Below are positions 819-21,399 of a stretch of DNA of 40,366 nt, piece after piece; the first letter of the stretch is position 1, and each line of letters opens with the position of its first letter. The stretch is from Bacteroidota bacterium (GTDB lineage Bacteria; Bacteroidota; Ignavibacteria; UBA10030; SZUA-254): NCBI GenBank assembly GCA_033852415.1, contig JAWOMQ010000179.1:1-40366 (forward strand), given 5' to 3'. A program made the translations under genes and the position numbers. The notes under the pieces were generated by a model. It was given only the letters and a program-made list of their open reading frames with translations. It made no database searches and had not been told where the DNA came from.

Positions 819-846
819 TTGATATTTGTGTCGTATATGGTATAAT
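819..846 (+). promoter_or_regulatory. Putative sigma70 promoter of the HTH-RuvC pair
   Basis: TTGATA (819-824), 16-nt spacer, extended -10 TGgTATAAT (838-846). Confidence 0.6.
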
Positions 847-867
847 GGGCGTTGAGTGATCTCTGCG

Positions 868-900
868 ACTTGCCGCTTGCGGCAAGTGACGCCTTCTTTC
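868..900 (+). promoter_or_regulatory. Element-specific motif copy 1 (palindromic operator plus directional tail)
   Basis: Perfect inverted repeat ACTTGCCGC-TT-GCGGCAAGT (868-887); core followed by N6-GCCTTCTTT. Similar copies at 8098-8128 and 9288-9318. Confidence 0.65.
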
Positions 901-967
901 GTGAGTGCGCATGTCTGGTATTCTGGTGGCGGTGGATCTGATTCCGTCACAAATGAACGCACTCACC

Positions 968-1871: not shown

Positions 1872-2930
1872 TTAAGGAGAGTTGCTGCCCAAATGATCTC
1901 GCGCGATTTGAATTATTTTTCTGGGGCTCCCTCCACACCCCCCGAAAATATACTCGATAGACTCACAAAAATCTATCGCGGATGCATTTCTTTGAAAACA
2001 GGTCTCCCGATATCCTCGAGCCCTTCTGAGCAGCTCTTCTACGCTATTCTGTCGGATATTTCCTAATATCTCAACTTTTGGTTCCCGCAAAAGAAACCAC
2101 TTACAGTTTAATCCCGTTTCTGCGTCGACAACACAATTTCCAATATTGTCAACATGCAATCCTGTGATGATCGATGGGCATATGGGTCGAGTGTAACCCT
2201 TCCAAAGTAGATGTTCAACTCTTTCCTTGAGCGACACTATATTTGCGTGATCCAAGGCCAAGTCCTGATAGGTTTTCTTCCTCAACGTTCTCCCGGCCTG
2301 TTCAAGCTCTCCGACAGAAGGGAAGATGTTCTTTTCTTTTGCATACTCGATTACTTTATCGATGCCATTAAGATTTAGTTGCGTTGGAACAATAGAGAAG
2401 GCCATATCTGTATAATCTGCGTAACCCTTTCCATAACCGGAACTCAGCAAGAACTCGGTTGCCTCGTAAATTCTTTGGGCGGCACCCTTTCTTCCAAGTA
2501 TCCTATCAAAATCGGGCTCCTCAAAGGTGTCCATCTTAAGGACAAGATTCACAGCCTTTTTGTGTAACCAGGTTGCTGTCTGCGCGTCAATCAGGATTCC
2601 ATTTGTGAAGACAGACATCCTAACATCATGAATTGCAGCCTCCTCCACAAGGCCCACAAACCTGTCGTCCTCAAGAGGTTCACCCAAACCACAAATGTAA
2701 ATCCATTTCAGCCCGCAACTTAGAGCCTCCTCCAAGAGATTTTTCGTCTCGGCTTTGGTCAACTCATTTGTATACTTACTTCCCACCTTCGGTCGGGAAT
2801 CGCAGTATATGCAGGACGCAGAAGTGCAATTGGCCGTGAGTTCCAGGTCCAGAGTGACCAAATCACCAGAATCGTGCGCCCTCAAGCACTCATCGAGCAC
2901 TTCATCACACCAAGGATAGTAGGTGATCAT
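1872..2930 (-). CDS. Radical SAM protein with atypical Cx4Cx2C motif and SPASM/Twitch-like C-terminus
   Basis: LELTANCTSASCIYC, GLGEP, FTNG; C-terminal CPS..G..C..LGNI...C..GGCGG. Confidence 0.85.
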   Translation of the reverse strand: MITYYPWCDEVLDECLRAHDSGDLVTLDLELTANCTSASCIYCDSRPKVGSKYTNELTKAETKNLLEEALSCGLKWIYICGLGEPLEDDRFVGLVEEAAIHDVRMSVFTNGILIDAQTATWLHKKAVNLVLKMDTFEEPDFDRILGRKGAAQRIYEATEFLLSSGYGKGYADYTDMAFSIVPTQLNLNGIDKVIEYAKEKNIFPSVGELEQAGRTLRKKTYQDLALDHANIVSLKERVEHLLWKGYTRPICPSIITGLHVDNIGNCVVDAETGLNCKWFLLREPKVEILGNIRQNSVEELLRRARGYRETCFQRNASAIDFCESIEYIFGGCGGSPRKIIQIARDHLGSNSP

Positions 2931-3030
2931 CGGACAATCAATCAGTGTTTGAATTGAAGAGTTACATGAGTTTGTAAATATGATGTAATCTTACCTCAAG
3001 GTCGGGCGGTTTCGTATCCATTGCCACTTT

Positions 3031-3963
3031 TTATCCCTGATTGCTAGTCCCCTCTCGCTTATTGAAATCAAATTGCAACTGCTTTGTAACCACGTGTGTC
3101 CCTCGTTCATCCATCATAGACTGCAGGGACTTAACGAATATCGCCCATGCGTCTTTGGGTTTTGAATCGACCTTATAGACAAGGGGATATTTCGCTTTTT
3201 CGTATAACTGACTCGTGGGAAACTTCACCAGTACCGTAGGCGGCTCACCATAGGCATCATAAATAATGACCGTCATATAAACCAAATATTCCGGGACCAA
3301 GAAGCACTGGATTTGTTCCTTCGCTTGTTGTACTGACAGGCCAGAGGACCTTTTCCACTCCGACGCTAGCTCCATCATCCTGTTCTGAAGCCGTTTGTCT
3401 TCGCAGGGAATCAGATATTTGTACTTTATGCCCTTCTTGAAATTTTCTTGCAGGGTCTCTTTGAGCTCTTCATTCTCAAGTACGAGGGAAGAAGTCAGGA
3501 CCCAAATCTCACTTCTCTCTCTGACGCTTCTCTCGATCCGCACCAGATCCTCGTATGTAATCAGAGATTCTCTGAATTCCCCCTCCATAAGCTGCTTTAC
3601 TGTATTTATAGAGAGGTTTAAAGATTGGATACACCTTTCACACGTGAGCGAGTTTGAAAGTACTCTGTCTATTTCGGTCTTGAATTGACCGATTTGCACC
3701 TTGGTTTCATCAAATTTCTGATCAAGCTCTTGAGTGGCCGCGACTAATTGTCGTCCAGCAGTTAACTTTGCGACAATTGCTCCTACGAAAGATGACAAAG
3801 ATACAAAAAGTATGGCCAACAAAATGTTCCTGAGTTTGAATTCCAAGAGCAAACTCTCGAGAGCAATTGTGCCAGCGACTACGCATACCACAATGACAAT
3901 ATGCACCCACCACGGCAATTCGAGTTTAGTTCCCGACATTTCCGTCCTTATATTAGTTGACAA
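3031..3963 (-). CDS. Hypothetical membrane protein: two N-terminal TM helices, coiled coil, soluble alpha/beta C-terminal domain
   Basis: Two hydrophobic stretches near the N-terminus followed by a heptad-like segment; overlaps the upstream gene's stop, so it is operonic. Confidence 0.75.
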   Translation of the reverse strand: MSTNIRTEMSGTKLELPWWVHIVIVVCVVAGTIALESLLLEFKLRNILLAILFVSLSSFVGAIVAKLTAGRQLVAATQELDQKFDETKVQIGQFKTEIDRVLSNSLTCERCIQSLNLSINTVKQLMEGEFRESLITYEDLVRIERSVRERSEIWVLTSSLVLENEELKETLQENFKKGIKYKYLIPCEDKRLQNRMMELASEWKRSSGLSVQQAKEQIQCFLVPEYLVYMTVIIYDAYGEPPTVLVKFPTSQLYEKAKYPLVYKVDSKPKDAWAIFVKSLQSMMDERGTHVVTKQLQFDFNKREGTSNQG

Positions 3964-4876
3964 CGTTTTTAGGATTTCCGGTTATGAACGCCTCAATGTT
4001 AGAAAAGCATTCGTTCACTTGTCGAGTCTTTGCTTCCACGGTGTTAAATCCAACATGAGGTGTCAAAACAACACGATCTGAATTCAACAATTCCTTTGGC
4101 AGCTCGATCTTTCCTCCTTCAACTGCAACATCAAGTCCGACTCCGCGGATGCGATGGTTCTGCAAGACCTCTATCAGATCATCAAGCACGATTATATTCC
4201 ATGTGGCCGCGACAAGAATCGCATCACGTTTCATGGTGTTGAAGCTATCCTTGTTAAGCATTCCCCTTGACTCATTATTGAGCGGGCATGATACGCAGAT
4301 TACGTCGCTTGAGGAAAGAAGTTCACCAAGAGACCCGTAAGGAACATCACCGCGCTTCTCCCGATGGCGCGTGTGCGCAACCACTTCCATGCCTAAGCAT
4401 CTGGAGATTTCAGCAACTCTCCTCCCAATTTTCCCGAAGCCGATGATTCCCATCCTACGACCCTTTAACTCCACACCCTCCAAATAACCCTTTTCAGTTC
4501 TGCCGGTTCTCAGATTATGGTCTCCAACCATAGTCTGGCGTGCCACACACAGCGCCAATCCAATTAGATGCTCCGCAACTGCTTCCGTGGCATATTCAGG
4601 TACGTTGCTGATGAGTATCCCCTGTTTCCTCGCCTCGTCCCTATGCTGAATCCATCCATACCCCGTGGACATTAGCGCAACTAGAGATGGTGATTTCATA
4701 GAGAGAATAAACCCAGAAGGATCTATCCAATCTACTAAGACCACATCCGCTCCTCTGATTCTTTCGGGTATTTCGTCATCGCTCGAGGATTCAAACCAGT
4801 CGACGCGTCCTAGTTGCTCCAGGCGCTTCGTCTGCGCTTTTGATCTTTCAATTTTCTCCAACACTACAATTTTCAT
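3953..4876 (-). CDS. D-isomer-specific 2-hydroxyacid dehydrogenase family protein (divergent active site)
   Basis: SNVPEYATEAVAEH, ELKGRRMGIIGFGKIG (Rossmann), SDVICVSCPLN, LDV, LTPHVG. Confidence 0.9.
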   Translation of the reverse strand: MKIVVLEKIERSKAQTKRLEQLGRVDWFESSSDDEIPERIRGADVVLVDWIDPSGFILSMKSPSLVALMSTGYGWIQHRDEARKQGILISNVPEYATEAVAEHLIGLALCVARQTMVGDHNLRTGRTEKGYLEGVELKGRRMGIIGFGKIGRRVAEISRCLGMEVVAHTRHREKRGDVPYGSLGELLSSSDVICVSCPLNNESRGMLNKDSFNTMKRDAILVAATWNIIVLDDLIEVLQNHRIRGVGLDVAVEGGKIELPKELLNSDRVVLTPHVGFNTVEAKTRQVNECFSNIEAFITGNPKNVVN

Positions 4877-6006
4877 TTTTTTTTGCCTCTATATATTTGA
4901 TTTACCTTTATCTTATACAGATCGTGGTCTATTGTGCAACCTTCACAAAGGAGACACCCCTGGTTCCTGTCCGGGCATATGCCGTTTTCAATCATCGCGT
5001 CCACAGCAGCCTCGCTTGCCTCAATAAGGTCCTGTGGTCTACAAGGTGGGCGGTATCTGAAAGCAGATTTATCCCACGGCTTGAATGGCAAGATGCACGG
5101 TTGTGACCCGACATCTGCCAATGCTCTCACGCATTCAATCGAATCTTTTATTGGCTCGAGCCCCACGAGGAGACAGCTTCCCACCCGATTCGGCCCCAGC
5201 GTATCTACTACTTTTTGACATGCCCTCAAATATGTAGTCTTAGGGATTTCAGATTTTCCCGGACAGATCCCTTTGCGTAGCTCATCATTCCATATCTCGA
5301 TATTAAATCCGAAGCTGCTGACGCCTGCTCTTACAAGGCGTAAAATGTCGTCATCTGATTCAGGGGGGACCATCTCTACCCATATTGGCACTTCAGGGTT
5401 ATTTTCTCGGATGACAGAGGCACACTCGCAAAAATAATCGACATTTCTGCTCAAGGGCATTCTGGTTCCGCCACCGAGGCAGACATGATATGCTGAGTTT
5501 CCCCTGAGCGCTTCAGAAACAATTTGAGCAACTTCTGTCGGACTGGCGATCTCCCATTTGGCACCCGTACCACAGAACTTACATTGTTTTCCCCCTGCGT
5601 AGTAATCACATCCCGTGTAAGCTTGATGCAGAAACTTCTTTCCTTCATGCAGAAAAAAGTTGCCCATCGCGATCCCCGTGCTAGTTTTCTTGTGACACCA
5701 GTTGCCTGTCGATACTTCCTCCACTCGACAAACAACCAAACCGTTCTTCAGCAGGGCAAGACCACTTTCAATTGCTTCCAACGAATAAGGCGATTTCCTA
5801 TCAAATTGGTGGGAAATGGTAACGAGTGCACTGCTTGCTCCATCAATAGAGATATGGATTCCCACATTACCCGTCTTCCAGTCTCCATAAGGATTCTGCC
5901 TTTGGTACATAGCCTTAGCAACATCATTAGGATATACTCCTTTGCATAGCAACTCTGCTTTGAGACCTGCGATATATAGTGGCCGAGATTGTGGTTCTTC
6001 AAACAT
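4873..6006 (-). CDS. Radical SAM protein with Cx8Cx2C motif (resembles MSMEG_0568/biotin-synthase-like clade)
   Basis: CDYYAGGKQCKFC, LGGG, FNIEIW, ICPGK, LVGLE, C-terminal GCLLCEGC. Start is ATG 6006 or TTG 6039. Confidence 0.85.
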   Translation of the reverse strand: MFEEPQSRPLYIAGLKAELLCKGVYPNDVAKAMYQRQNPYGDWKTGNVGIHISIDGASSALVTISHQFDRKSPYSLEAIESGLALLKNGLVVCRVEEVSTGNWCHKKTSTGIAMGNFFLHEGKKFLHQAYTGCDYYAGGKQCKFCGTGAKWEIASPTEVAQIVSEALRGNSAYHVCLGGGTRMPLSRNVDYFCECASVIRENNPEVPIWVEMVPPESDDDILRLVRAGVSSFGFNIEIWNDELRKGICPGKSEIPKTTYLRACQKVVDTLGPNRVGSCLLVGLEPIKDSIECVRALADVGSQPCILPFKPWDKSAFRYRPPCRPQDLIEASEAAVDAMIENGICPDRNQGCLLCEGCTIDHDLYKIKVNQIYRGKKK

Positions 6007-6174
6007 GGAGCTAATCGAAGTGTCAAAAGTTTTGATCAAGATAGCGATTTTTCGGGCCTTTTCAAAAAGGCTCGCGTGAAAAAAATACGCAGGGGGAACC
6101 GCTCCGCGATTTGATCCTTATCCGAACTCTTCATACCTTTCGGCATCAATTTTCCACCGTTCTCCTAATCCACC

Positions 6175-6316
6175 AAAGTCCCGCAACGAAGGGTGTCGCG
6201 CATGCGTGTTCGCCTCCCACACCATGCACAGCTTCCTTGCGGATTGAAAAGTCCCGTCTATGAGACCCACGTGGGTTGCTACGCCTCCCCAGTGACTCAT
6301 AACTCATAGACAGGAC
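6175..6316 (-). other. Twin-hairpin structured element A (putative ncRNA or ssDNA signal)
   Basis: 14-bp stem GTCCTGTCTATGAG/CTCATAGACGGGAC enclosing CTGGGGAGGCG and CACGTGGG; second hairpin with loop GGGAGGCGA; homologous to 10870-11024. Confidence 0.6.
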
Positions 6317-6331
6317 AGCTTTTTTCGAGAC

Positions 6332-6367
6332 AAAAAAATGCCCGCCGTATGGTGACGACGGGCTTTT
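6332..6367 (-). terminator. Intrinsic terminator after radC-like gene
   Basis: Minus strand: GCCCGTCGT-caccat-ACGGCGGGC followed by ATTTTTTT. Confidence 0.8.
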
Positions 6368-6370: not shown

Positions 6371-6829
6371 TCAGAGCAATCCTCGCTCCGCGAAGCTCAT
6401 GTAGCCATTCTGTTCCGTGACGATCACATGGTCATTGAGAGGTATGCCGAGAAGCTTCCCCGCTTCGACCAGTTGTTTCGTTATGGCAAGATCATCACTT
6501 GACGGCTCACTGTTTCCCGAAGGGTGATTATGCACCACGATAACCGATGCAGCATTCACCATGTAAGCGAGCTTGAAGACTTCCCGGGGATGTACGAGGG
6601 AGGCGTTCAAGACACCCACAGAAATCGTATGAACGCCGATTAACCGATTTGCATTGTTCAGGTAGAGTCCAATGAAGTGTTCCCGATCCACTCCGCGCAG
6701 ATACTCGACCGCGATCTTGGCCGCATCTGCTGGAGATTGGATGTACGGATTCTCGACCGTGAGGTTTGCATCGTGAACGAGAATCACTTTATAGATCGGG
6801 GTTTCACAGAAGAGTCTTGGTTTTTTCAT
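6371..6829 (-). CDS. radC: RadC-family JAB/MPN domain protein (MGE type, no N-terminal HhH)
   Basis: DREHF, VHPREVFK, HNHPSG...PSSDD, DHVIV; ATG 6829 overlaps the upstream stop (ATGA). Confidence 0.92.
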   Translation of the reverse strand: MKKPRLFCETPIYKVILVHDANLTVENPYIQSPADAAKIAVEYLRGVDREHFIGLYLNNANRLIGVHTISVGVLNASLVHPREVFKLAYMVNAASVIVVHNHPSGNSEPSSDDLAITKQLVEAGKLLGIPLNDHVIVTEQNGYMSFAERGLL

Positions 6830-7632
6830 ATGCTCAGCTCGACTTCTTGTTTCGGCCGCTCTGCCTTCACCCCCACGTTCCAGATGGGGCAGAGATGCGC
6901 ATACTCGCAGTCTTTGCACCACCACCCCGTGCGCGGAAAGAAGATGCCTCCCGTGATCCCTTTGTATACCTGCTCTGCAACCCTGAAGAACATCGAGTGA
7001 TGATCCCTTCCGCGAGTCGTCATGAGGACCTCGAGTTTGGGTTTCTTGTACTTCACGAAGTTCACGATCTTCAAGGCTCGCGGTTGCCTCCCCGAGAGTC
7101 GTGTATAGGCGTACGCATAGGCCGTGAGCTGAAGGTGAGATTGGATGTCACTCTCCGTTAATGGCTGTGCCGAGGTTTTGAACTCAACGATCGTATCACC
7201 TTCCTCCACAAGATCGAAATACCCGTCGAGGTGCACTGGAAGCTCTTCTCCCGTTGAAGGATTCACAAGTGGGATCGTGAACGGAATCTCAGAACCCATG
7301 ACCTTTCTGTACGGCTCCTTGAAATAGAGTCCGAGCATCTCCTTTCCCATCACCGTGAGTTTCAGGTTCTCTTCGTTATCCTTGTAACGGATATCGGCAT
7401 CGACGGTTTGGCTGAACCAATCGACATCGAAGATTTTGTAGAGCCGTTCCAAGGATACGCCGTTGCCCTTCATCCGCTCCTGGTGAAGCCATGCGAGAGC
7501 GGAGTGGAGTGCGCTTCCGAAGGCAAGGGCGGACGCTTTGAAGAGTCTTGGAATCTTCTCGATGTACTGGAACTTGTACTTCTCTCCGCACTGGAGGTAG
7601 AGGTTGATCTGGCTGCTAGAAAGGTGTTCCAT
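6826..7632 (-). CDS. PD-(D/E)XK nuclease, Cas4/RecB-AddB-like, with 4-Cys Fe-S ligands
   Basis: LSSSQINLYLQC, FGSALH, GYFDLV, IVEFKT, QLTAY, CKDCEYAHLC. Confidence 0.9.
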   Translation of the reverse strand: MEHLSSSQINLYLQCGEKYKFQYIEKIPRLFKASALAFGSALHSALAWLHQERMKGNGVSLERLYKIFDVDWFSQTVDADIRYKDNEENLKLTVMGKEMLGLYFKEPYRKVMGSEIPFTIPLVNPSTGEELPVHLDGYFDLVEEGDTIVEFKTSAQPLTESDIQSHLQLTAYAYAYTRLSGRQPRALKIVNFVKYKKPKLEVLMTTRGRDHHSMFFRVAEQVYKGITGGIFFPRTGWWCKDCEYAHLCPIWNVGVKAERPKQEVELSI

Positions 7633-8035
7633 TGTCGCCGTCTCCTTTCACGGTTTCGAGCAAGCGTTCGATGAGTTTGCTCGCGTCGAACTTCGTGATC
7701 TCCCGAAGCGATTGCACGTTCAAGAGGTTCTTGAGGTGCTGGGTGGCTTTGTCACCTTCGATCTTCTGATCGGCCAGGAGGCGGAAGATGTATCGCTTCT
7801 GGGCATCGGTCATGGACTCCGGTTCTCCCTTTCCGTCCCTTCTCCCGTGTGTCTTGGGTGCGGCGGAGGTGGGCGCCTTCCTTTGAGGCTGCTGTCCCTC
7901 CCCATCTGTGGGCGATAAAGATTGCGGCTGAAGTTCGGACCGCATTCCCTGTGGTTCTTGTTCCGTCACATTGATTCTGAAAAGCACTGTACCGTCGGCT
8001 CTTTGCACTTCGATACAGAGTGGTTGCGTGGTCAT
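7616..8035 (-). CDS. Hypothetical protein with TxxQ...T(K)xxASxxI helical motif
   Basis: AAGGAG RBS upstream; MTDAQKRYIFRLL...ITKFDASKLIERL; overlaps the nuclease start. Confidence 0.75.
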   Translation of the reverse strand: MTTQPLCIEVQRADGTVLFRINVTEQEPQGMRSELQPQSLSPTDGEGQQPQRKAPTSAAPKTHGRRDGKGEPESMTDAQKRYIFRLLADQKIEGDKATQHLKNLLNVQSLREITKFDASKLIERLLETVKGDGDNGTPF

Positions 8036-8097
8036 ACTGTGCTCCTTTCTTGGTGTTGTAAATGTGCGACTTCAAGTGTTGCACACGGAGCCCATGG

Positions 8098-8128
8098 AAC
8101 AAGAAAGCAGAACGTGCCGGGAGCGGCA
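8098..8128 (-). promoter_or_regulatory. Element-specific motif copy 2
   Basis: Minus strand TGCCGCTCCCGGCA-cgttct-GCTTTCTTGTT upstream of the 8035 start. Confidence 0.6.
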
Positions 8129-8171
8129 ACCAATACCTCCCTGCATCGTAGCTATCATCACTTCGAGTAAT

Positions 8172-8207
8172 AAAAAATCCTGAACGGGCTTGAATTGTTC
8201 AGGATTT
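8172..8207 (-). terminator. Intrinsic terminator after DUF932 gene
   Basis: Minus strand AAATCCTGAAC-N11-GTTCAGGATTTTTT. Confidence 0.75.
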
Positions 8208-8226
8208 GTTTCTGCGAGGAAGCGAG

Positions 8227-9189
8227 TCAATTTCTCGCCGTCATCATATCGAGCGCGAGCTTGAAGGCGTGCTGTTTGATCCTCTCACCGGAGCCGAACC
8301 AGATCGACCGCAAGCGCGTCGAATCACCATTTGTGAGACGGCGATAATAATCCACATACTCCGTGACGGCGTTATACGCGCCCCAGAGCGTTCCACGGGC
8401 GAGATCAGCGCCTTTCCCGACATGCGCAAGCTCGAAGACCTTTTCCCGGACAGGGTTCCTCCGATGGGGGCAGCCGTTTGTGAGAGGATCGGGGAAGACC
8501 TTCGCTACGTAATCAGAGAGTACTCGTCCATCGATTCGGGTACTGCTCATCTGGTTGAAGATGTGATCGAGCTCTTCGTAAAGTTTGTTCGTGAGCCCAA
8601 GAATCTCGTGTGCCTCTTTCATGCGCTCCGATGCGTGCGCGGTGTGTCGGATACGGACTTCCTGTTCCGCGCCGCTCAACGCGAGGGAGAGTGTGTTCTC
8701 GCAGACAACACGGATCGGTGTGAGCTTCACTCGCACGACGCTACTGCCGTCATGGGAGTTCGTGAGGAGGAGGAATTTCTCGACAAGATCGTTTCCCCTG
8801 ACGCGGATATAATCGGGAAGCTTGGCTAAGAGCCAGATGCGTTCTCCTTTTCCCAAGGCTCCTGCCGTGTGGTAGATTGCTTCTCCTTCTCCGACTAAAG
8901 CATCGAAGGTCATGAAAGCTTCGTGGTTCTGTATCGGAACGTAGCGTGATCCCACGACACCCAAGACTTGGTTTGTATCCATCCGAACCGTAGCGAAGTG
9001 GGACTCGATGGGGAGAGCTGTTTCTGTGGTAAGGGGAATCTTATGGACGGTAAAACCCAATCCTGCTGATTGAATTGCTTCCTCGGCCGTGGCCGGTTCG
9101 TCGAGCTTTGTGCCGAGCTTGTGCCAAGGCACTTCGCCGACGTACATCATGCCGATCTGGCCATTGGCTTCATTGAGGTTGTGACCCAT
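8227..9189 (-). CDS. DUF932 family (phage/plasmid-like) protein
   Basis: PWHKLG, LGVVGSRYVPIQN, TAGAL..GERIW, NSHDGS, TPIRVVCENTL, IRHT, GTLWGAYNAVTEYVD; AAGGAG RBS before ATG 9189. Confidence 0.92.
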   Translation of the reverse strand: MGHNLNEANGQIGMMYVGEVPWHKLGTKLDEPATAEEAIQSAGLGFTVHKIPLTTETALPIESHFATVRMDTNQVLGVVGSRYVPIQNHEAFMTFDALVGEGEAIYHTAGALGKGERIWLLAKLPDYIRVRGNDLVEKFLLLTNSHDGSSVVRVKLTPIRVVCENTLSLALSGAEQEVRIRHTAHASERMKEAHEILGLTNKLYEELDHIFNQMSSTRIDGRVLSDYVAKVFPDPLTNGCPHRRNPVREKVFELAHVGKGADLARGTLWGAYNAVTEYVDYYRRLTNGDSTRLRSIWFGSGERIKQHAFKLALDMMTARN

Positions 9190-9287
9190 GAGTTGTTGCT
9201 CCTTTCTGTGTATGGTGACGTTGGTTGATATGCACCCCTTTGAAGTTTTCAAAGTGCACGCTCAGTTTCATGCATCATTAACTCACC

Positions 9288-9318
9288 AACAAGGAAGCTC
9301 AACCTGCCGCAAGCGACA
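9288..9318 (-). promoter_or_regulatory. Element-specific motif copy 3
   Basis: Minus strand TGTCGCTTGCGGCA-ggttga-GCTTCCTTGTT in the divergent DUF932/ATPase intergenic region. Confidence 0.6.
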
Positions 9319-9384
9319 TGGGATGCTTTCTTTCAGTTACGGTGCGAGGAGCCATACAATGTGTTCACTTCAAGCGAAGCAATC

Positions 9385-10707
9385 ATGGAGAACAAAGACA
9401 AAGAACCCTTGACGCCGATCGCGGTGACGAACTGGCGGGACATCCGACGGGTGTTTGGCATCAAACAAAAGAATCGGAGGGGTCATATCTACGTGATCGG
9501 AAAGACAGGCACGGGAAAATCGACGCTCATGGCTCGGATGATGATCGACGACATGCAGCAAGGGTACGGCATCGGGGTCGTCGATCCACATGGCGATCTC
9601 GCAGAAACAATCCTCCAACACGTACCGAAGGAGAGAGTGAACGACGTGATCTATTTCAATGCTGCGGACTTTGACTATCCCATACCCTTTAATCCCTTGG
9701 AGCAAGTTCCAAATCAGGAGCGACACCTTGTGGTGTCTGGACTCCTATCCGTATTCAAGAAAATGTGGCATGACTTCTGGGGCCCACGGCTTGAACACAT
9801 ACTCCGCCATGCGCTCTTTACACTCCTTGAGGTTCCCGGAAGTACGCTCCTTGATGTCCCCAGGTTACTGACAGATGCAGAGTTTCGGAAGATGGTGTTA
9901 ATGGGCGTGAATGATCCTCATGTGCGCGCCTTCTGGACACGAGAGTTTGATAAGTATTCGGCCTGGCTTCGCTCGGAAGCGACATCTCCCATCCTCAACA
10001 AAGTGGGGCAGTTCCTCACAGCTCCGCCGCTTCGGAACATCGTCGGGCAACCGCATGATTCCTTCAGGATGCGCGAGGTAATGGATGAGGGGAAGATTCT
10101 GATCGTGAATCTCTCGAAAGGGAAGATTGGGGAAGACAACTCTTCGCTCTTAGGCGCGATGATTGTTACTGAGCTACAGCTTGCAGCCATCAGTCGCGCG
10201 CATCTCCCGGAACATGCTCGCAAGGCCTTTTATCTCTACGTGGACGAGTTCCATAACTTCCTCACGCTCTCGTTTGCCGATATGCTTTCAGAAAGCCGGA
10301 AGTATGGGTTGAATCTCATTCTCGCACACCAGTACCTTGATCAAATGCACGAGAAGGTGCGCCTGGCGGTTTTTGGGAACGTGGGAACGATCATTTCGTT
10401 CCGGGTTGGTGCGGAGGATGCGAAGTGCCTGGCAAGGGAATTTCACCCCACTTTCGATGAAACTGACTTTGTAAATTTGCCAAATTACCAAATTTACCTA
10501 CGGTTGATGGTTGATGGTGCCACATCGGAGCCATTTAGCGGAACGACTATGGCACTCGGCCATTCCGGCGGGGATCAAGGTTCCCGTTGTGTGGAAGCAT
10601 CAAGAGCAAATTACGCGCGGTTGCGGAGCAACGTGGAGATCCAAGTTCTGGAAAGGTGCGCTACGTTGGCAAATAAGAAGAAACGCCTCCCCCTTGGGTT
10701 GTTATAA
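9385..10707 (+). CDS. Soluble VirD4/TraD/HerA-like P-loop ATPase (type IV coupling protein-like)
   Basis: HIYVIGKTGTGKS (Walker A), VVDPHGDL, FNPL, LYVDEFH (Walker B), SESRKYG, LAHQY, FGNVGT; no TM segments. Confidence 0.88.
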   Translation: MENKDKEPLTPIAVTNWRDIRRVFGIKQKNRRGHIYVIGKTGTGKSTLMARMMIDDMQQGYGIGVVDPHGDLAETILQHVPKERVNDVIYFNAADFDYPIPFNPLEQVPNQERHLVVSGLLSVFKKMWHDFWGPRLEHILRHALFTLLEVPGSTLLDVPRLLTDAEFRKMVLMGVNDPHVRAFWTREFDKYSAWLRSEATSPILNKVGQFLTAPPLRNIVGQPHDSFRMREVMDEGKILIVNLSKGKIGEDNSSLLGAMIVTELQLAAISRAHLPEHARKAFYLYVDEFHNFLTLSFADMLSESRKYGLNLILAHQYLDQMHEKVRLAVFGNVGTIISFRVGAEDAKCLAREFHPTFDETDFVNLPNYQIYLRLMVDGATSEPFSGTTMALGHSGGDQGSRCVEASRANYARLRSNVEIQVLERCATLANKKKRLPLGLL

Positions 10708-15004: not shown

Positions 15005-15943
15005 TTATCGTCTGGGCCCCATAAATTTTTCGCCGTTGAAGTGGATCATATGATCAGGATGTTCCACAATCCACACTTCTGTTTCCCAAGCGAGGTTGCT
15101 TGTGTGGCGCTTAAACTCACCGAAATCAGGGAATGCCGACACGTAAATCTTGCCTGCTTCACAATTCTTTAGAAATTCTTCGAGTTCCACGATTCGCTTA
15201 GGCGTTACGGGTCCATGTGAAGTCACTGCTTCGATAAGATACAGCCAATTCTTGGCGGGATCGTAAATCACGACATCAGGTAACTTGCTGTGCTGGTCAA
15301 TCGGAATTCCGAGCTTGGTCAGCATCCTGGAATCCATATGCAAGTCCTTCTTCGCGGCATCGCCAAGGTATAGTAAGAGAGAGCCCTTTGCGAAACGGGA
15401 AGCAAATTGATTTACGATGGCGGCCTGCACTTGGTTATGTTTTCCAGGAGAAAGAGTTATCGTGGTTCCATCTGCAAGTTTCAACGGGATGAGTGTCAGT
15501 TCACGGTCCTTGACATACTTTTTCTTCAGCTCGCCTACTTCGGTTTTGAACTTCGCCAATGCTATTGACCATCGTTTTGTCCCGAAAGTTTTGATCACCT
15601 CAAGAGCGGTTTTCGAGATCGCATAATGTGCATTCGGGCTATTTACGGGGAGGAGCGGATTGTCGGGATTGTAATCGGCAAGTCGTGCCTGAACGAATTG
15701 GTGCAACACTTGCCGCCTCACTGTTTCCCGAGTGTTGGGAGCATAGCGGCGTTTGTACTGCTTGGCTATGAAATCCATGATTCCCTTAGTGACCTTCAGA
15801 CTAGAGCGTTGAGCATCTTTCCACGCATCCCTTTGTTTGATGCTGCAAAGAGCAAGCAGCGTCAGGGCAGAAATTTCGTTTTGTTGGGCCTCGGGAAGGC
15901 CCAATTCTTGTAGGATAGTCTGAGCTTCTTTGATTTTATTCAT
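15005..15943 (-). CDS. Type II restriction endonuclease, BsuBI/PstI family
   Basis: LGLP..QQNE, YAPNTRETVRRQVLHQF, LSPGKHN, KLPDVV, LIEAVTSHGP, AWETEVW...HMIHFNG; start ATG 15943 overlaps the MTase end. Confidence 0.93.
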   Translation of the reverse strand: MNKIKEAQTILQELGLPEAQQNEISALTLLALCSIKQRDAWKDAQRSSLKVTKGIMDFIAKQYKRRYAPNTRETVRRQVLHQFVQARLADYNPDNPLLPVNSPNAHYAISKTALEVIKTFGTKRWSIALAKFKTEVGELKKKYVKDRELTLIPLKLADGTTITLSPGKHNQVQAAIVNQFASRFAKGSLLLYLGDAAKKDLHMDSRMLTKLGIPIDQHSKLPDVVIYDPAKNWLYLIEAVTSHGPVTPKRIVELEEFLKNCEAGKIYVSAFPDFGEFKRHTSNLAWETEVWIVEHPDHMIHFNGEKFMGPRR

Positions 15944-17573
15944 GCGTGCTGACAAGTTCCTTTTCCATCTCAAACACCTGACTCACAACCTCGTCAACGA
16001 TGGGCTGAGTGAATTCGTTCTTGAGGATGATTGTGTTGCCGATTTGTTTGATTGTCTCGAGGGGCGGCAAGGGCATCTCACGCAGTTCTGTGGCACTTAC
16101 GTTGATATTTCCGTTGAACGTTCTGAAGTAAGTATCAAACAGGCTGCTATTGAGTAATGCTGCAAGGCCGATGATCTCGTTACGGTCCAAGTGGCCGCTT
16201 GGTCGGTAAATATAGTTCAAGTGATTCTCGACACCGATAACATCGGCCTCAACGGTGTCGGCGAAATACGGCGTAGCCACTAGTCTGCTTTTGTCATCCT
16301 TGGAACTAAATCGGCGAAGGAAAATGTAGTTCTTGTTAGGAATCAGCAAAGACAGAGACTTTTCGCAAACCTCGATGTACTCACCTTTGCCGATTTTGTG
16401 GAGTGGCCACGTTAGCCTCATCTGGGAAGCGTTGTGTAGCCAATAGAGTGGGGCTAGCGATATCGCCATCGTGGGCTCGCCATGGATGAATCTCTTCGCT
16501 CTGAAGCAAACGACTGGTCCAGTAGAGATTTGGATGCTGTAAGCATTTAGACTTCCTAGCCATGATCTGAAAAGGCGAATGACATTGGCCTCGTAATCAG
16601 AACAGGGCAAGTGCAGAATCTTCTGATGGGAGCTAATATCTAACAACTCGTCCATATGGAACTTTTGAACCCTTCGGGACTCTAAATCTCTGAGCCCCTG
16701 TGAAAAGGAGACAGTGATCGCAGGTCGCTTCCCGTTTGCCTTCATGCGCCGGGCTGAGATAACGACATTCTCTTGTAAAACATCATCCTTCAGGAACGCT
16801 TCTTTTCTCGAGTCGAAGAGGTGAACGGCATCAAGTTGAACGAGCGAGAAAAACTTGGCACGGAACAGTCTGAAATAAAATCCCGATGAAAAGCTGCGGG
16901 GCGTGATAAAGATTAATTGCCCGTTCTCTACCAATAGCGTGGCGGCGATGTACAAGAAGATCGAATAGATGTTGGGTTGTCCGTGAACAACCGCATTGGC
17001 CGCCCTCGCTCTGGCATCCTCCTTTGGGAGCTTGAAATAGGGGGGGTTTGAGATGATGAGATCAAAATAGTCCCTGCTTCGTTCCTGATTTTCAAGAGTG
17101 TCGGAGTTGGAAAGCAGGAAATCGTCGGAGAGAATAGTGAAGTCAATTTCGACATTGTGATGAGCTAGCCACTTCTTGAGGTAGGACAACGATTGATGAG
17201 CAAGTGGAATCAATTCGTGGTCAGTTTCATAGGCCACGACCACTATCTTTGATAGATGTTTATGAGAATTCTGGAGTCGCTCTGATAACGCGCACGTGAG
17301 GATCGCTACGCCGCAACCCGGATCAAGGATTCTGATTGTTGACTTGCTGCAGAGACTCAGGCTTGCCATGAACCTGGCGAGGTCGGCGGGAGTAAAGAAC
17401 TGACCATGTTGTTTTTTGTACTCGTCCGAGACTTGAGATGAATAATATCTTCCCAGTCTCTCAGCAAACGAACTAGGCAATTCCTCTTTGAGTGGCGATA
17501 GCTTATCGCCAATCCCAAAATCGACGGGATTCGTGGTGATTTTTGGCGCCATGGGTAATGGTTCTCGTTTCAT
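15936..17573 (-). CDS. N6-adenine DNA methyltransferase (gamma class, M.BsuBI/M.PstI/Eco57I-like)
   Basis: GQFFTP, ILDPGCGVAIL, ISNPPY, FITPRSF, VLQEN, RRFSSK, ENHLN; start uncertain (17582/17573/17552). Confidence 0.93.
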   Translation of the reverse strand: MKREPLPMAPKITTNPVDFGIGDKLSPLKEELPSSFAERLGRYYSSQVSDEYKKQHGQFFTPADLARFMASLSLCSKSTIRILDPGCGVAILTCALSERLQNSHKHLSKIVVVAYETDHELIPLAHQSLSYLKKWLAHHNVEIDFTILSDDFLLSNSDTLENQERSRDYFDLIISNPPYFKLPKEDARARAANAVVHGQPNIYSIFLYIAATLLVENGQLIFITPRSFSSGFYFRLFRAKFFSLVQLDAVHLFDSRKEAFLKDDVLQENVVISARRMKANGKRPAITVSFSQGLRDLESRRVQKFHMDELLDISSHQKILHLPCSDYEANVIRLFRSWLGSLNAYSIQISTGPVVCFRAKRFIHGEPTMAISLAPLYWLHNASQMRLTWPLHKIGKGEYIEVCEKSLSLLIPNKNYIFLRRFSSKDDKSRLVATPYFADTVEADVIGVENHLNYIYRPSGHLDRNEIIGLAALLNSSLFDTYFRTFNGNINVSATELREMPLPPLETIKQIGNTIILKNEFTQPIVDEVVSQVFEMEKELVSTHE

Positions 17574-17629
17574 AGGTGACAAAAATATTGAGCGGCTCCC
17601 ATACGCTGCATTTTCCCACTCATGGGATT

Positions 17630-17658
17630 AGTATATGAAATTTTGATAATTTTAGCAA
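17630..17658 (-). promoter_or_regulatory. Putative sigma70 promoter of the R-M operon
   Basis: Minus strand TTGCTA-N17-TATACT. Confidence 0.6.
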
Positions 17659-17778
17659 TCAAGATTCGCGTCGTACACCGATCTCACAATGCTCGTCAGG
17701 GTAACAAAGGTGCTCTCGGTTCAAGTTGGTTTTGACATTTTCGGTATGTAAATTTCACCATCGACAGGATGGTGCCTC

Positions 17779-17940
17779 GTGCATAAAACCAAAACTATTC
17801 GTATCGGGATAAGAGTTTCAACCGAAGACCAGGTCAAGGGCGAGAGTTCGGGACATCGTGAGATGCAGGTACGTGGCTCCACGATGGCGCGAATTGAGTA
17901 TTGGTTCCTGTCGAAGATGCTGCTATCCACTGCAATTTAA
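17779..17940 (+). pseudogene. Remnant of a serine recombinase 5' end (paralogous to 18705-18803)
   Basis: Translates (V/M)[32 protein letters not shown] versus integrase [33 protein letters not shown]; similarity ends ~17877, stop at 17938-17940. Confidence 0.85.
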
Positions 17941-17958
17941 ACTTCTAAAGGAAGGTTC

Positions 17959-18654
17959 TTGAAAAGCAAAAGTGACCAATTTCTTACTCTGAGCATTGAT
18001 GAGGCAGAGAACGGCATTAATAAATGCCTTGAGACTGCCAGGAGACTCGTTAGGGCGGCGAAACTTCTTTGCGACGCTCAATATTTTGAGATTGCATCAT
18101 TTCTCCTTTGTGCGGCGATTGATGAGACTGGAAAGGCTTACCTTCTCTTGGATTTCCAAGACGAAAAATTTGAGAATAGACCAGAGAGTGTACGAAACCT
18201 CGCGAGCTCATTTTTTGAGCACGTCGACAAACTTGAATCGGCCCTTGAAGCCGTGAGGACTCTTGAATCGCGCATTGAGTCAGTCCTCAAATTAAAATCG
18301 GAATGCAACTCGTCACCTGAAATCGTGGAGGCGATCCGCGAGCTCACCGGTGGATTCACGCCGCTGGCGGTCAGAGATGAGGCTAAAAAGACATTTCGTC
18401 GCCCGAACGAGTTTCTCTACACCGACTACCAGAAAGACAAGTTCATCATCCCGAAATGTCAGGCGACGTTGTCGGGATACCAAGCCCTTCTTAAATGCGC
18501 TGAGAAAGCCGTTACACTTGCTGAGTTTGAAAGGTTCCGGGATAAAGTATTTCGATTGAGAGGAGCGTCACGAGAAACGGTTAGCAAGATTTTCCTTGAG
18601 AGTTTGCCAGAGCTCATGGAGGTAGTACGGAAACAGCGGGCCCCGTGCAAATAG
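17959..18654 (+). CDS. AbiV-family (HEPN-like) abortive infection protein
   Basis: A.RL..AA.LL....F.IA.FL...AIDETGKAYLL, FFEHVDK and R.NEFLYTD pattern; TTG start with GGAAGG RBS. Confidence 0.72.
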   Translation: MKSKSDQFLTLSIDEAENGINKCLETARRLVRAAKLLCDAQYFEIASFLLCAAIDETGKAYLLLDFQDEKFENRPESVRNLASSFFEHVDKLESALEAVRTLESRIESVLKLKSECNSSPEIVEAIRELTGGFTPLAVRDEAKKTFRRPNEFLYTDYQKDKFIIPKCQATLSGYQALLKCAEKAVTLAEFERFRDKVFRLRGASRETVSKIFLESLPELMEVVRKQRAPCK

Positions 18655-18704
18655 CCGCAAAGAATTTTGTCGATTATGGGATGAAATCACTTTAACAGGT
18701 ATCA

Positions 18705-21234: not shown

Positions 21235-21399
21235 TGCAGTTATCCTCCCTGTGGCAACCAAAAAGCGAAATCTTCAAACAAATTCAGAATTCGAAGATTT
21301 ACTCCCGATTATATACTAACTATTTCTATAAGAATCAAATGCTTTTTTCACCCTTTTATTGCTTTTAGAAGTACTTTTCGTTATCATAAATCATACCTG

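What the first reader, a model, noticed from the sequence alone, without database searches (positions are those of the whole stretch)
1872..6006. Candidate undescribed defence or small-molecule system: two atypical radical SAM enzymes, a dehydrogenase and a 2TM protein
Seen: four co-oriented genes, the first three overlapping (4873-4876; 3953-3963). They appear AT-richer by eye than the flanking genes and sit as cargo in an island that also has R-M and AbiV. No precursor peptide, transporter or regulator is evident. Known: many antiphage systems pair enzymes that make a signal or modified nucleotide with a 2TM effector (CBASS, Thoeris, Pycsar), and viperins show radical SAM enzymes can be antiviral. 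I do not recognise this combination as a named system. Inference: the enzymes make or modify a metabolite or nucleotide that is sensed by, or acts with, the membrane protein.
Basis: partly seen in the sequence, partly recalled or inferred. Interest (0 to 1): 0.85.

Follow-up and report, generated by a model that had tools for sequence, protein, structure and literature searches.

The report
Mobile two-radical-SAM cassette, function unknown
Four genes (two unusual radical SAM enzymes, an altered dehydrogenase and a membrane-anchored protein) form a cassette that recurs in the same order in distant bacteria, mostly on mobile DNA, and matches no described system, so it is a good candidate for a new conflict or small-molecule system.

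Summary
Four intact, co-oriented genes lie at 1872-6006 (- strand). They are a Cx8Cx2C radical SAM enzyme (rSAM1), a 2-hydroxyacid-dehydrogenase homologue that lacks the catalytic Arg (DH), a 2TM/coiled-coil protein (TM2) and a Cx4Cx2C radical SAM enzyme (rSAM2). This stretch has the lowest GC of the contig. It has its own upstream region and lies in a mobile island inserted in comM, with PstI-type R-M and AbiV.

The same gene order recurs in 6 of 14 genome loci (Kiritimatiellae, Clostridia, Lachnospiraceae) and 15 of 19 evaluable metagenome loci. Firmicutes forms add a fused methyltransferase and a TrmFO paralogue. The cassette was not found in 40 relatives, 400 same-phylum genomes, plasmid or phage collections. 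The most recurrent neighbours are T4SS coupling proteins, with R-M and candidate defence genes nearby.

TM2's C-domain has a PLD-superfamily fold without the HKD histidine. The partner enzyme varies (dehydrogenase, SDR or aminotransferase), and distant rSAM2 relatives sit beside NUDIX, deaminase and MetK genes. No conserved precursor peptide was found, and no named defence family matched.

Best reading (about 0.35): a mobile conflict module that makes a modified, probably nucleotide-derived, metabolite which TM2 binds. Function remains untested.

The parts
4873..6006 (-). rSAM1: variant radical SAM enzyme (377 aa from the ATG at 6006; the ORF is open to the TTG at 6039). It has a Cx8Cx2C cluster motif, a C-terminal CxxCxxC, and an N-terminal domain of about 130 aa with no assigned fold.
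   Evidence: NF045502 at 159.2 bits against a cut-off of 125. The Cys residues are invariant in 26 homologues. AF2 pLDDT is 94.4. The nearest folds are LipA, MqnE, HydE, BioB and ThiH.
3953..4876 (-). DH: D-2-hydroxyacid-dehydrogenase-fold NAD enzyme. The substrate-binding Arg of the 'ARG' motif is replaced by a conserved T-W motif. The catalytic His (TPH) is kept.
   Evidence: PF02826 1.5e-40 and PF00389 2.4e-15. Alignments to 5aov and 1wwk. The (S/A/T)TW(G/D/N) motif is present in all 22 DHs longer than 280 aa from loci that also hold TM2 or rSAM2.
3031..3963 (-). TM2: two N-terminal TM helices, a roughly 60-residue stalk helix, and a C-terminal PLD-superfamily-fold domain (about residues 130-300) with no HKD histidine. 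The probable start is the ATG at 3939.
   Evidence: AF2 pLDDT 87.4. Foldseek and VIA-align Z 8.1-11.0 match PPK1, SauUSI, FAM83, NucT, TrmB, Zucchini and Nuc. His occurs in at most 17 of 59 sequences in any column. The family has 171 representative clusters.
1872..2930 (-). rSAM2: MoaA/SPASM-twitch-like radical SAM enzyme with a Cx4Cx2C motif and a C-terminal auxiliary-cluster Cys set (C251, C266, C276, C332).
   Evidence: PF04055 2.7e-10. All equivalog models score far below their cut-offs. Conserved Cys residues. The nearest solved sequence is MoaA at 3.5e-6.
6038..6363 (-). The cassette's own upstream region. An intrinsic-terminator-like hairpin plus T-run (6363-6340) ends the RadC operon. 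A promoter-like hexamer pair lies at 6065-6038.
   Evidence: the promoter-like count is not above the shuffles; sequence.
6371..10707 (.). Mobile-element backbone next to the cassette: RadC 6371-6925 (-), PD-(D/E)XK 6826-7632 (-), a 139-aa ORF 7616-8035 (-), DUF932 8227-9252 (-) and a TraD/VirD4-like ATPase 9361-10707 (+).
   Evidence: Homologues of the ATPase and of the 139-aa ORF also flank the cassette in L018 and L026/L027.
15005..21261 (.). Island end: PstI-type REase 15005-15973 (-), N6-MTase 15936-17582 (-), AbiV 17959-18654 (+), serine recombinase 18705-20204 (+) and comM truncated at 361 aa, 20176-21261 (-).
   Evidence: comM has a 519-aa open frame in the same-genus genome G001.

Best explanation
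The four genes are one horizontally mobile functional module, carried as cargo by integrative or conjugative elements of anaerobes.

Inferred mechanism:
- The two radical SAM enzymes build a modified small molecule together with the Arg-less dehydrogenase. rSAM1 is LipA/MqnE/ThiH-like with an auxiliary cluster. rSAM2 is MoaA/twitch-like with an auxiliary cluster.
- Firmicutes forms add a fused small-molecule-type SAM methyltransferase and a TrmFO paralogue.
- The product is most likely derived from a nucleoside or nucleotide.
- TM2 binds that product, or a related phosphate-bearing ligand, through its catalytically dead PLD-fold head. It transmits this through a long stalk to its two membrane helices.
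- The module would then act as a conflict system (antiphage, or aimed at rival mobile elements) rather than as housekeeping metabolism.

Shown: gene content, motifs, folds, cassette conservation, mobility and neighbourhood.
Inferred: the nature of the product, ligand binding by TM2 and the conflict role.
For: (1) Cassette conservation. The order rSAM1-DH-TM2-rSAM2 is found in 6 of 14 genome loci from Kiritimatiellae, Clostridia, Lachnospiraceae and Ca. Fimenecus. It is also found in 15 of 19 evaluable metagenome loci whose rSAM2 is at least 44% identical (L026/L027 and L039/L040 are near-duplicates). TM2 lies directly upstream of rSAM2 in 24 of 28 such loci.

(2) Accessory and mobile.
- rSAM2 was found in 0 of 40 relatives and 0 of 400 same-phylum genomes.
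- The cassette has the lowest GC of the contig and lies in an island inserted in comM.
- T4SS coupling proteins are the most recurrent neighbours, 6 of 108 flanking ORFs, and a MobL relaxase and serine recombinases also occur.
- The cassette sits in different positions relative to the same backbone genes in the window, L018 and L026.

(3) Defence-type neighbours. The window has R-M and AbiV. Among the 108 neighbours are Type I, IIG and ISP R-M, Schlafen/AlbA_2, HD-CE and OLD-like AAA_15/21, with PADLOC hits to PDC-M60A/B/C, PDC-S68, PDC-S15, HEC-09 and PD-T4-6.

(4) Modularity. The DH is replaced by an SDR (L036) or an aminotransferase (L045). TM2 is replaced by another 2TM protein, cl24 (L045, L047, L052). 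The methyltransferase and the TrmFO-like gene are optional.

(5) Hints of a nucleotide substrate.
- rSAM2's nearest relatives are MoaA, BlsE and viperin-type enzymes.
- Distant rSAM2 relatives sit beside NUDIX, adenosine-deaminase-like, MetK and methyltransferase genes (L077), or beside a NACHT STAND protein (L066).
- rSAM1 relatives sit beside rSAM::HD, a nucleoside 2-deoxyribosyltransferase-like protein, a helicase and a HAD phosphatase (L006, L013).
- The fifth gene is a TrmFO paralogue, i.e. a flavin-dependent uracil-C5 methylase.
- The DH has lost the carboxylate-binding Arg, replaced by a conserved Trp.

(6) TM2. It has a confident PLD-superfamily fold (Z up to 11.0). It has no conserved His, but conserved E144, S158, N174, K177, Y181, Y183 and K247. 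This fits a binding domain rather than a hydrolase.

(7) No conserved precursor-peptide ORF was found in 20 cassettes.
Against: - There are no functional data at all.
- None of the four proteins hits a PADLOC defence model convincingly: rSAM1 and DH have no hit, TM2 hits a '2TM effector' at E 0.025, and rSAM2 hits pVip at 4e-6 over the N-terminal core only.
- The defence enrichment among neighbours has no background control. Single PADLOC HMM hits do not prove systems. Some loci are flanked by housekeeping genes (His biosynthesis and ComEC in L005, V-ATPase in L009).
- The swap between DH, aminotransferase and SDR, the GNAT partners and a B12-rSAM partner are equally typical of secondary-metabolite clusters.
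- The fused methyltransferase resembles UbiE, BioC and Tam small-molecule enzymes, which says nothing about nucleotides.
- The nucleotide-type neighbours belong to distant relatives (30-41% identity), not to the cassette itself.
- A long stalk holding a PLD-like head could equally bind nucleic acid or protein.
- All cassettes come from uncultured genomes or metagenomes. Context could be read for only about 95 loci.
Confidence: 0.35

Rival explanations
1. The cassette is a specialised-metabolite pathway carried as mobile cargo. It makes an antimicrobial, antimetabolite or cofactor-like compound, for example a nucleoside analogue or a sulfur-containing acid. TM2 serves as self-immunity, membrane anchor or regulator, not as a sensor of infection.
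For: The cassette is rich in enzymes. The redox and amino-transfer partner is interchangeable, and relatives have GNAT, B12-rSAM and PEP-utilising partners. The fused methyltransferase is of the small-molecule type. rSAM1 is closest to the LipA, BioB, MqnE, HydE and ThiH cofactor-building enzymes and has an auxiliary cluster.
Against: The cassette holds no transporter, regulator, carrier protein or resistance gene. It is very small and always includes a 2TM protein, either TM2 or cl24. It is absent from relatives. Its neighbourhood is dominated by transfer and defence-type genes rather than biosynthetic genes.
Confidence: 0.25
2. The cassette is a nucleic-acid base hypermodification module. 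The enzymes modify uracil or another base in the element's DNA, or in tRNA or rRNA. This would protect the mobile element from restriction or nucleases, or alter translation.
For: The Firmicutes forms carry a TrmFO paralogue (NF003739 at 298 bits against a cut-off of 262). L007 has a tRNA U5-methyltransferase-family gene directly upstream. The cassette lies beside RadC, DUF932 and PD-(D/E)XK transfer-associated genes. Phage thymidine hypermodification uses radical SAM, PLP, flavin and acetyltransferase enzymes (PMC8989533; abstract and passages read).
Against: The four-gene form in the window has neither the TrmFO-like gene nor the methyltransferase. No DNA- or RNA-binding or targeting domain was detected in any component. 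No relatives were found in IMG/VR with rSAM1 or in INPHARED phages with rSAM2. A membrane-anchored component has no obvious role.
Confidence: 0.15
3. The cassette works by HXS-like logic. The radical SAM enzymes modify TM2 post-translationally, and the matured membrane protein is the effector.
For: rSAM2's best full-length similarity is to SPASM/twitch protein and peptide maturases: mycofactocin maturase 1.7e-14 over residues 26-332, plus SkfB and anSME. TM2 or cl24 is the gene most tightly linked to rSAM2, including L054 and L073. The HXS defence system uses two rSAM enzymes to mature a protein effector (PMC13128918; abstract read).
Against: The dehydrogenase, aminotransferase, methyltransferase and TrmFO-like partners do not fit protein maturation. 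rSAM2 scores far below every maturase cut-off. HxsB/HxsC models were not among the hits listed for the window's proteins. TM2 has no repeat and no conserved Cys or His that would suggest a target site.
Confidence: 0.1
4. The cassette is an ordinary core-metabolic cluster (cofactor, nitrile/Nit1C-type or molybdopterin-related) that only happens to lie in this island.
For: rSAM1 is related to the MSMEG_0568 family (TIGR04043, 9.9e-34) and rSAM2 to MoaA (1.8e-12). Some rSAM1 relatives pair with a GNAT, as in Nit1C (the Nit1C composition is recalled, not taken from a call).
Against: Both scores are far below the cut-offs: 116.8 against 303.7, and 47 against 231. No nitrilase, AIR-synthase-like or Moa genes lie nearby. 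rSAM2 was not found in 0 of 40 relatives or 0 of 400 same-phylum genomes. The distribution is patchy across phyla and on mobile elements.
Confidence: 0.03

Closest known systems
Prokaryotic viperins (pVip)
   Same: A radical SAM enzyme of the MoaA/viperin neighbourhood, carried among defence genes. A plausible nucleotide substrate and a small-molecule mode of action.
   Different: rSAM2 scores 24.6 bits against the viperin model's cut-off of 180 and matches only the N-terminal core. It has Cx4Cx2C rather than CxxxCxxC and a C-terminal auxiliary cluster. pVips act alone or with kinases, not with a second rSAM, a dehydrogenase and a 2TM protein.
HXS system (HxsA-D; PMC13128918, abstract read)
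   Same: Two radical SAM enzymes in one small defence operon together with a non-enzymatic envelope-associated protein.
   Different: HxsB/HxsC family models do not match the window's enzymes. Distant rSAM2 relatives reach only 18-26 bits against a cut-off of 268. There is no HxS-repeat or peptidoglycan-binding effector and no HxsD. The dehydrogenase has no counterpart.
Ophion (OpnABC; bioRxiv 10.1101/2025.09.30.679545, passages read)
   Same: A radical SAM-containing multi-gene defence system proposed to make interfering nucleotides.
   Different: Ophion pairs the rSAM with PHP and PRTase proteins, which are absent here. It is found in Gammaproteobacteria and has no membrane component.
Signal-plus-TM-effector systems (CBASS, Pycsar, Thoeris, type III CRISPR Cam1/Csx23)
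   Same: The architecture of enzymes plus a small protein with N-terminal TM helices and a cytosolic ligand-type domain.
   Different: There is no CD-NTase, cyclase, TIR or CARF/SAVED domain. PADLOC finds no such component. The head domain is a PLD fold, which is not known as a signal receptor in these systems (this last point is recalled).
HKD-less PLD-fold proteins (TrmB sugar-binding domain, FAM83 DUF1669, PPK1 C-domains)
   Same: The TM2 C-domain aligns with them at Z 9.6-11.0 over 128-142 residues and, like them, lacks the catalytic His.
   Different: TM2 is membrane-anchored through 2 TM helices and a long stalk, shares no detectable sequence family with them, and has its own conserved residue set (E144, N174, Y181, Y183, K247).
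MSMEG_0568 / Nit1C-type variant radical SAM proteins
   Same: rSAM1 passes the NF045502 'variant_rSAM' domain model. Its relatives pair with, or are fused to, GNAT acetyltransferases.
   Different: It scores below the TIGR04043 cut-off (116.8 against 303.7). The other Nit1C genes are missing here. rSAM1 has different partners (DH, TM2, rSAM2) and is mobile.

Membership tests
Prokaryotic viperin (pVip) | Score at or above the curated cut-off of the viperin family model | tested here: not met
   NF038283 gives 24.6 bits against a cut-off of 180. PADLOC pVip gives E 4e-6 over residues 30-151 only.
Prokaryotic viperin (pVip) | Canonical CxxxCxxC radical SAM motif | tested here: not met
   rSAM2 has C35-x4-C40-x2-C43, conserved in 29 homologues.
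HXS system | HxsB/HxsC-family radical SAM maturases | tested here: not met
   No Hxs model is listed for rSAM1 (6 families) or among the best 25 of 30 families for rSAM2. Distant relatives score 18.3 and 25.9 bits against a cut-off of 267.9.
HXS system | Effector with His-Xaa-Ser repeats | tested here: not met
   TM2 has no conserved His in any column (maximum 17 of 59) and no repeat was seen in its sequence.
Ophion | PHP and PRTase partners of the rSAM | tested here: not met
   The cassette's partners are a 2-Hacid_dh protein and a protein with no family; no PHP or PRTase domain was found.
CBASS / Pycsar / Thoeris-type signalling defence | Nucleotide cyclase, CD-NTase or TIR signal generator | tested here: not met
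   No such Pfam or PADLOC hit in any of the four proteins.
CBASS / Pycsar / Thoeris-type signalling defence | Effector with TM helices that responds to the signal | not testable with these tools
   Two TM helices are present. The PADLOC '2TM effector' hit is only E 0.025. Ligand response needs experiment.
Phospholipase D (HKD) superfamily | PLD fold | tested here: met
   VIA-align gives Z 8.1-11.0 to 21 PLD-type entries over residues about 130-300. Foldseek gives E down to 1.2e-4.
Phospholipase D (HKD) superfamily | HxK(x)4D catalytic motif with a conserved His | tested here: not met
   No column has more than 17 His in 59 sequences. The residue two positions before conserved K247 is Leu, Ile or Val.
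D-isomer-specific 2-hydroxyacid dehydrogenase | Catalytic and NAD-binding domains | tested here: met
   PF02826 1.5e-40 and PF00389 2.4e-15.
D-isomer-specific 2-hydroxyacid dehydrogenase | Arg-Glu-His catalytic set, with the Arg of the 'ARG' motif binding the substrate carboxylate (the role is recalled) | tested here: not met
   'ARG' and 'SRG' of 5aov and 1wwk align with 'ATW' and 'TWN'. All 22 cassette DHs have (S/A/T)TW(G/D/N). The His of TPH is kept in most. All NCBIfam equivalog scores are below their cut-offs.
MSMEG_0568 family / Nit1C cluster | TIGR04043 score at or above the cut-off | tested here: not met
   116.8 bits against 303.7. The broader NF045502 domain model is met (159.2 against 125).
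MoaA / mycofactocin maturase / other named rSAM equivalogs | Score at or above the curated cut-off | tested here: not met
   MoaA gives 47 bits against 231, and MftC gives 53.7 against 265. All 25 listed families score below their cut-offs.
RiPP biosynthetic cluster | A precursor peptide gene conserved next to the maturase | tested here: not met
   No small ORF (18-95 aa) is shared across 20 cassettes within 600 bp of their flanks or in their gaps. Only L010 and L037 share an HTH ORF. The method misses very short or very divergent peptides.
TrmFO (fifth gene of the Firmicutes form; not in the window) | TrmFO equivalog models | tested here: inconclusive
   NF003739 gives 298.2 bits against a cut-off of 262 (met). 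TIGR00137 gives 253.5 against 428.65 (not met). It is a paralogue.

The most novel reading that the evidence does not exclude
This is a previously undescribed class of mobile-element-borne immune or conflict system. Two non-canonical radical SAM enzymes and an Arg-less dehydrogenase make a new modified nucleotide-like molecule. A membrane-anchored, catalytically dead PLD-fold receptor reads that molecule and acts on the membrane. Radical SAM chemistry would here serve as a signal or effector-ligand generator, not only as a chain-terminator factory as in viperins.
Probability: 0.2. Interest if true: 0.9.

Novelty: new variant of a known kind. Interest (0 to 1): 0.68.

Why it matters
Known radical SAM roles in bacterial immunity are few: viperins, Ophion and HXS. 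This cassette combines two enzymes with non-canonical cluster motifs, a dehydrogenase that has lost its carboxylate-binding Arg, and a new membrane-anchored HKD-less PLD-fold protein family with 171 representative clusters.

It moves between phyla on conjugative or integrative elements of gut and sediment anaerobes. If it is a conflict system, it would add new chemistry and a new receptor fold to bacterial immunity. If it is a metabolite pathway, it would point to a new natural product, possibly a nucleoside analogue.

Either way, four protein families that are now 'radical SAM protein' or 'hypothetical' would gain a testable joint context.

Tried and rejected
- PADLOC on the four proteins gave no convincing system hit.
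- The viral-contig scan with the rSAM1 alignment found none. tblastn of rSAM2 against PLSDB plasmids and INPHARED phages found no match. These are absences in those collections only.
- The search for related loci with the TM2 alignments A3 and A2 failed because no stretch was conserved enough. I used the rSAM2 alignment A4 instead. So TM2's contexts outside rSAM2-linked loci were not sampled.
- The ESM Atlas search on the TM2 C-domain returned only hypothetical-protein clusters at 0.90-0.91, plus a weak DUF5919 lead. I did not follow this up.
- Complex prediction of rSAM2 with the TM2 C-domain returned 'no answer' (score 0.02). This is no evidence either way.
- hhalign of cl24 against TM2 gave only 24% probability. 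I treat cl24 as an analogous 2TM protein, not a shown homologue.
- A RiPP reading was rejected for lack of a conserved small ORF.
- A core-cofactor or Nit1C reading was rejected on scores and distribution.
- Literature. Six full-text searches found no paper describing this gene combination. Three papers were opened: passages of 10.1101/2025.09.30.679545, the abstract and outline of PMC13128918, and passages of PMC8989533. Supplements were closed, so candidate lists in the supplementary tables of defence-discovery papers could contain this cassette without my seeing it.
- The defence enrichment among neighbours was not tested against a background.
- The window genes beyond 28241 were not annotated.

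Full report
**What is there**

The window is a whole 40,366-bp contig of a MAG that is 64% complete. Four intact ORFs lie head to tail on the - strand:
- rSAM1, 4873-6039. The database's version starts at the ATG at 6006 and has 377 aa.
- DH, 3953-4876.
- TM2, 3031-3963.
- rSAM2, 1872-2930.

The rSAM1 stop and the DH start overlap as ATGA. The DH/TM2 overlap exists only if TM2 starts at a TTG. An ATG eight codons downstream, preceded by AAGGA, is at least as likely.

The cassette has 45.9% GC. It is the lowest 4.2-kb window of the contig (mean 49.5%, sd 1.5%), against 51-52% in both flanks.

A hairpin plus T-run at 6363-6340 ends the upstream RadC gene, and about 300 bp separate it from rSAM1. 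The cassette therefore looks like its own transcription unit. The promoter-like match there is no better than chance.

**The proteins**

rSAM1
- It passes NCBIfam's 'variant_rSAM' domain model: 159.2 bits against a cut-off of 125.
- It does not pass the MSMEG_0568 equivalog: 116.8 bits against 303.7.
- In 26 homologues C133-x8-C142-x2-C145 and a C-terminal C351-xx-C354-xx-C357 are invariant.
- Its AF2 model (pLDDT 94.4) is closest to lipoyl synthase, MqnE, HydE, biotin synthase and ThiH. By sequence its nearest solved relative is ThiH, at 7.6e-6.
- The first 130 residues or so form an extra domain that those matches did not cover.

DH
- It is a clear D-2-hydroxyacid-dehydrogenase-fold protein (PF02826, 1.5e-40).
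- Every NCBIfam equivalog scores far below its cut-off.
- In alignments to solved glyoxylate reductase and phosphoglycerate dehydrogenase, their 'ARG' and 'SRG' motifs face 'ATW' and 'TWN'.
- All 22 cassette DHs carry (S/A/T)TW(G/D/N) at that place and keep the TPH histidine in most.
- From recalled enzymology, that Arg binds the 2-oxo-acid carboxylate. Its conserved loss suggests a different substrate.

TM2
- It has no Pfam family.
- A profile search found 171 representative clusters.
- The AF2 model (pLDDT 87.4) has a TM helix at 18-40, then one helix spanning 44-127 (second TM segment plus a stalk of about 60 residues), then an alpha/beta domain.
- That domain is a PLD-superfamily fold. VIA-align gives Z 8.1-11.0 to 21 PLD-type entries (PPK1 C-domain, SauUSI, FAM83, NucT, TrmB, Zucchini, Nuc, BfiI and others). 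Foldseek agrees.
- The family has no conserved histidine, at most 17 of 59 sequences in any column. It is therefore not an HKD hydrolase.
- Conserved residues are E144, S158, N174, K177, Y181, Y183, W203, Y235 and K247.

rSAM2
- It has C35-x4-C40-x2-C43 and conserved C251, C266, C276 and C332.
- It resembles the mycofactocin maturase, MoaA, NirJ, BlsE and viperin only at superfamily level. All scores are below their cut-offs.

**Is it a unit?**

Yes.

Genome loci. A scan of one genome per species with the rSAM1 alignment gave 14 loci.
- Six have rSAM1-DH-TM2-rSAM2 in that order: Kiritimatiellae L005, and Clostridia, Lachnospiraceae and Ca. Fimenecus L007-L011.
- Three more have rSAM1 next to a DH.

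Metagenome loci. A scan with the rSAM2 alignment kept 80 loci. Among the 36 whose rSAM2 is at least 44% identical to the window's:
- TM2 lies directly upstream in 24 of 28 evaluable loci.
- A DH is present in 18 of 24.
- rSAM1 is present in 17 of 19.
- All four genes in order occur in 15 of 19. L026/L027 and L039/L040 are near-duplicates.
- The four exceptions are informative. L016 lacks rSAM1. L036 has an SDR in place of the DH. L045 has an aminotransferase plus another 2TM protein (cl24). L023 has rSAM2 with a PEP-utilising enzyme and an aminotransferase.

Firmicutes-type loci.
- Twelve loci fuse a UbiE/BioC-like SAM methyltransferase to the N-terminus of rSAM1 (L007-L011, L034, L037-L041, L043).
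- Those twelve loci, plus L028, L036 and L042 without the fusion (15 in all), add a fifth gene. It was seen in 9 of the 23 metagenome loci with enough downstream sequence.
- The fifth gene is a TrmFO paralogue: NF003739 at 298 bits against a cut-off of 262, and TIGR00137 at 253 against 428.

No small ORF is conserved around 20 cassettes.

**Mobility and neighbourhood**

The window island
- A serine recombinase abuts a comM truncated at residue 361. The same-genus genome G001 has a 519-aa comM frame.
- The island also carries a PstI-type R-M, AbiV, a TraD/VirD4-like ATPase, DUF932, PD-(D/E)XK and RadC.
- It runs off the contig start.

Distribution
- rSAM2 was not found in 40 relatives (2 of the same genus, 22 of the same family, 16 of the same order).
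- It was not found in 400 genomes of the same phylum.
- It was not found in PLSDB plasmids or INPHARED phages.
- rSAM1 was not found in IMG/VR.

Neighbours
- Among 108 ORFs flanking 32 cassette loci, T4SS coupling-protein domains are the most frequent (6 members).
- Also present are a MobL relaxase, Type I, IIG and ISP R-M, Schlafen/AlbA_2, HD-CE, OLD-like ATPases and several PADLOC candidate-system models. Housekeeping genes also occur.
- Homologues of the window's ATPase and of its 139-aa ORF flank the cassette in L018 and L026, but in different relative positions. So the cassette moves as a module among related elements.
- I had no background control for the defence-type hits.

**What it may do**

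Shown: two Fe-S radical enzymes with auxiliary clusters, a redox enzyme with an altered substrate site, and a membrane-tethered non-catalytic PLD-fold head, all inherited together and exchanged horizontally.

Inferred: they make and handle a small molecule. The hints toward a nucleoside or nucleotide origin are indirect.
- rSAM2's nearest characterised neighbours act on GTP, CTP or cytosyl-glucuronate.
- Distant rSAM2 relatives sit with NUDIX, adenosine-deaminase-like, MetK and methyltransferase genes, or beside a NACHT STAND protein.
- rSAM1 relatives sit with rSAM::HD, a nucleoside-2-deoxyribosyltransferase-like protein, a helicase and a HAD phosphatase.
- The optional fifth gene is a flavin-dependent uracil-C5 methylase paralogue.
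- The DH has exchanged its carboxylate-binding Arg for Trp.

The swap between DH, SDR and aminotransferase says that a carbonyl intermediate is reduced or aminated.

TM2 has two TM helices, a stalk and a ligand-type head. In variants it is replaced by another 2TM protein. This is the layout of ligand-gated membrane effectors, but nothing here shows binding or gating.

I put about 0.35 on 'conflict module making a modified metabolite that TM2 binds'. The rest I spread over:
- a mobile specialised-metabolite pathway (0.25),
- nucleic-acid hypermodification (0.15),
- HXS-like maturation of TM2 (0.10),
- core metabolism (0.03),
- the unknown.

**Comparison with known systems**

The radical SAM defence systems I could find are viperins (recalled, and via the models), Ophion (10.1101/2025.09.30.679545, passages read) and HXS (PMC13128918, abstract read). 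The cassette fails the testable defining features of each, and those of CBASS-type signalling systems, HKD phospholipases, Nit1C and RiPP clusters (see Membership tests).

Six literature searches found no description of this combination. Supplementary tables were not readable.

**Verdict**

I rate it a new variant of a known kind (enzyme-made small molecule plus membrane protein on mobile elements), with a 0.2 chance of being a new class. Interest is 0.68.

Noticed in passing
window 18705-21261: A large serine recombinase (499 aa) abuts a comM (Mg-chelatase-like) gene truncated at residue 361. The same-genus genome G001 has a 519-aa frame. So an island of at least 20 kb is inserted in comM, and its other end lies beyond the contig start.
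   Followed up: partly
window 12299-14761: An 820-aa island-borne protein has weak matrixin (M10) and purple-acid-phosphatase-N hits and a Por/T9SS C-terminal sorting domain. This hints at an FCB-group host and a secreted cargo protein.
   Followed up: no
window 2-1827: Downstream of the cassette and convergent with it lie a calcineurin-like metallophosphoesterase (cut by the contig start), an XRE-type HTH protein and a 192-aa protein with a weak RuvC-like hit. This may be another small cargo module.
   Followed up: no
L006 118-6740 and L013 8515-15900: This is a different rSAM1 context in Firmicutes MAGs: an rSAM::HD fusion, rSAM1, a nucleoside 2-deoxyribosyltransferase-like protein, a ResIII/DEAD helicase, a HAD-like phosphatase and a GNAT_C protein. 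It looks like a nucleoside-modifying or conflict cluster in its own right.
   Followed up: partly
L075-L083 (e.g. L077 3642-9648): In human-gut metagenome loci, a distant rSAM2 relative (about 32% identity) sits with a small methyltransferase. Divergently transcribed from it are a NUDIX hydrolase, an adenosine-deaminase-like protein and an extra SAM synthetase copy. This set is conserved in 4-6 loci.
   Followed up: partly
L066 8001-14375: Two rSAM2-like genes flank a 1011-aa NACHT STAND NTPase fused to an FGE-sulfatase-like domain, followed by an aldehyde dehydrogenase. This is a possible NLR-like conflict system with radical SAM partners.
   Followed up: no
L011 900-9109: Next to the Firmicutes cassette lie a 1026-aa HD-CE plus HATPase_c_3 protein and an operon of 1076-, 147- and 403-aa proteins with no Pfam hit for the largest. 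This is a probable defence-island neighbourhood.
   Followed up: no
L010 9020-9265 and L037 403-678: An 81-91-aa XRE-type HTH ORF lies directly upstream of the cassette in two closely related Firmicutes loci only. It is a possible local regulator.
   Followed up: no
L016 4917-9047 and L025 1353-3857: These are decayed or reduced cassettes. L016 keeps DH-TM2-rSAM2 but has no rSAM1 within 8 kb upstream. L025 has a short rSAM1 fragment, no DH and a split TM2.
   Followed up: partly
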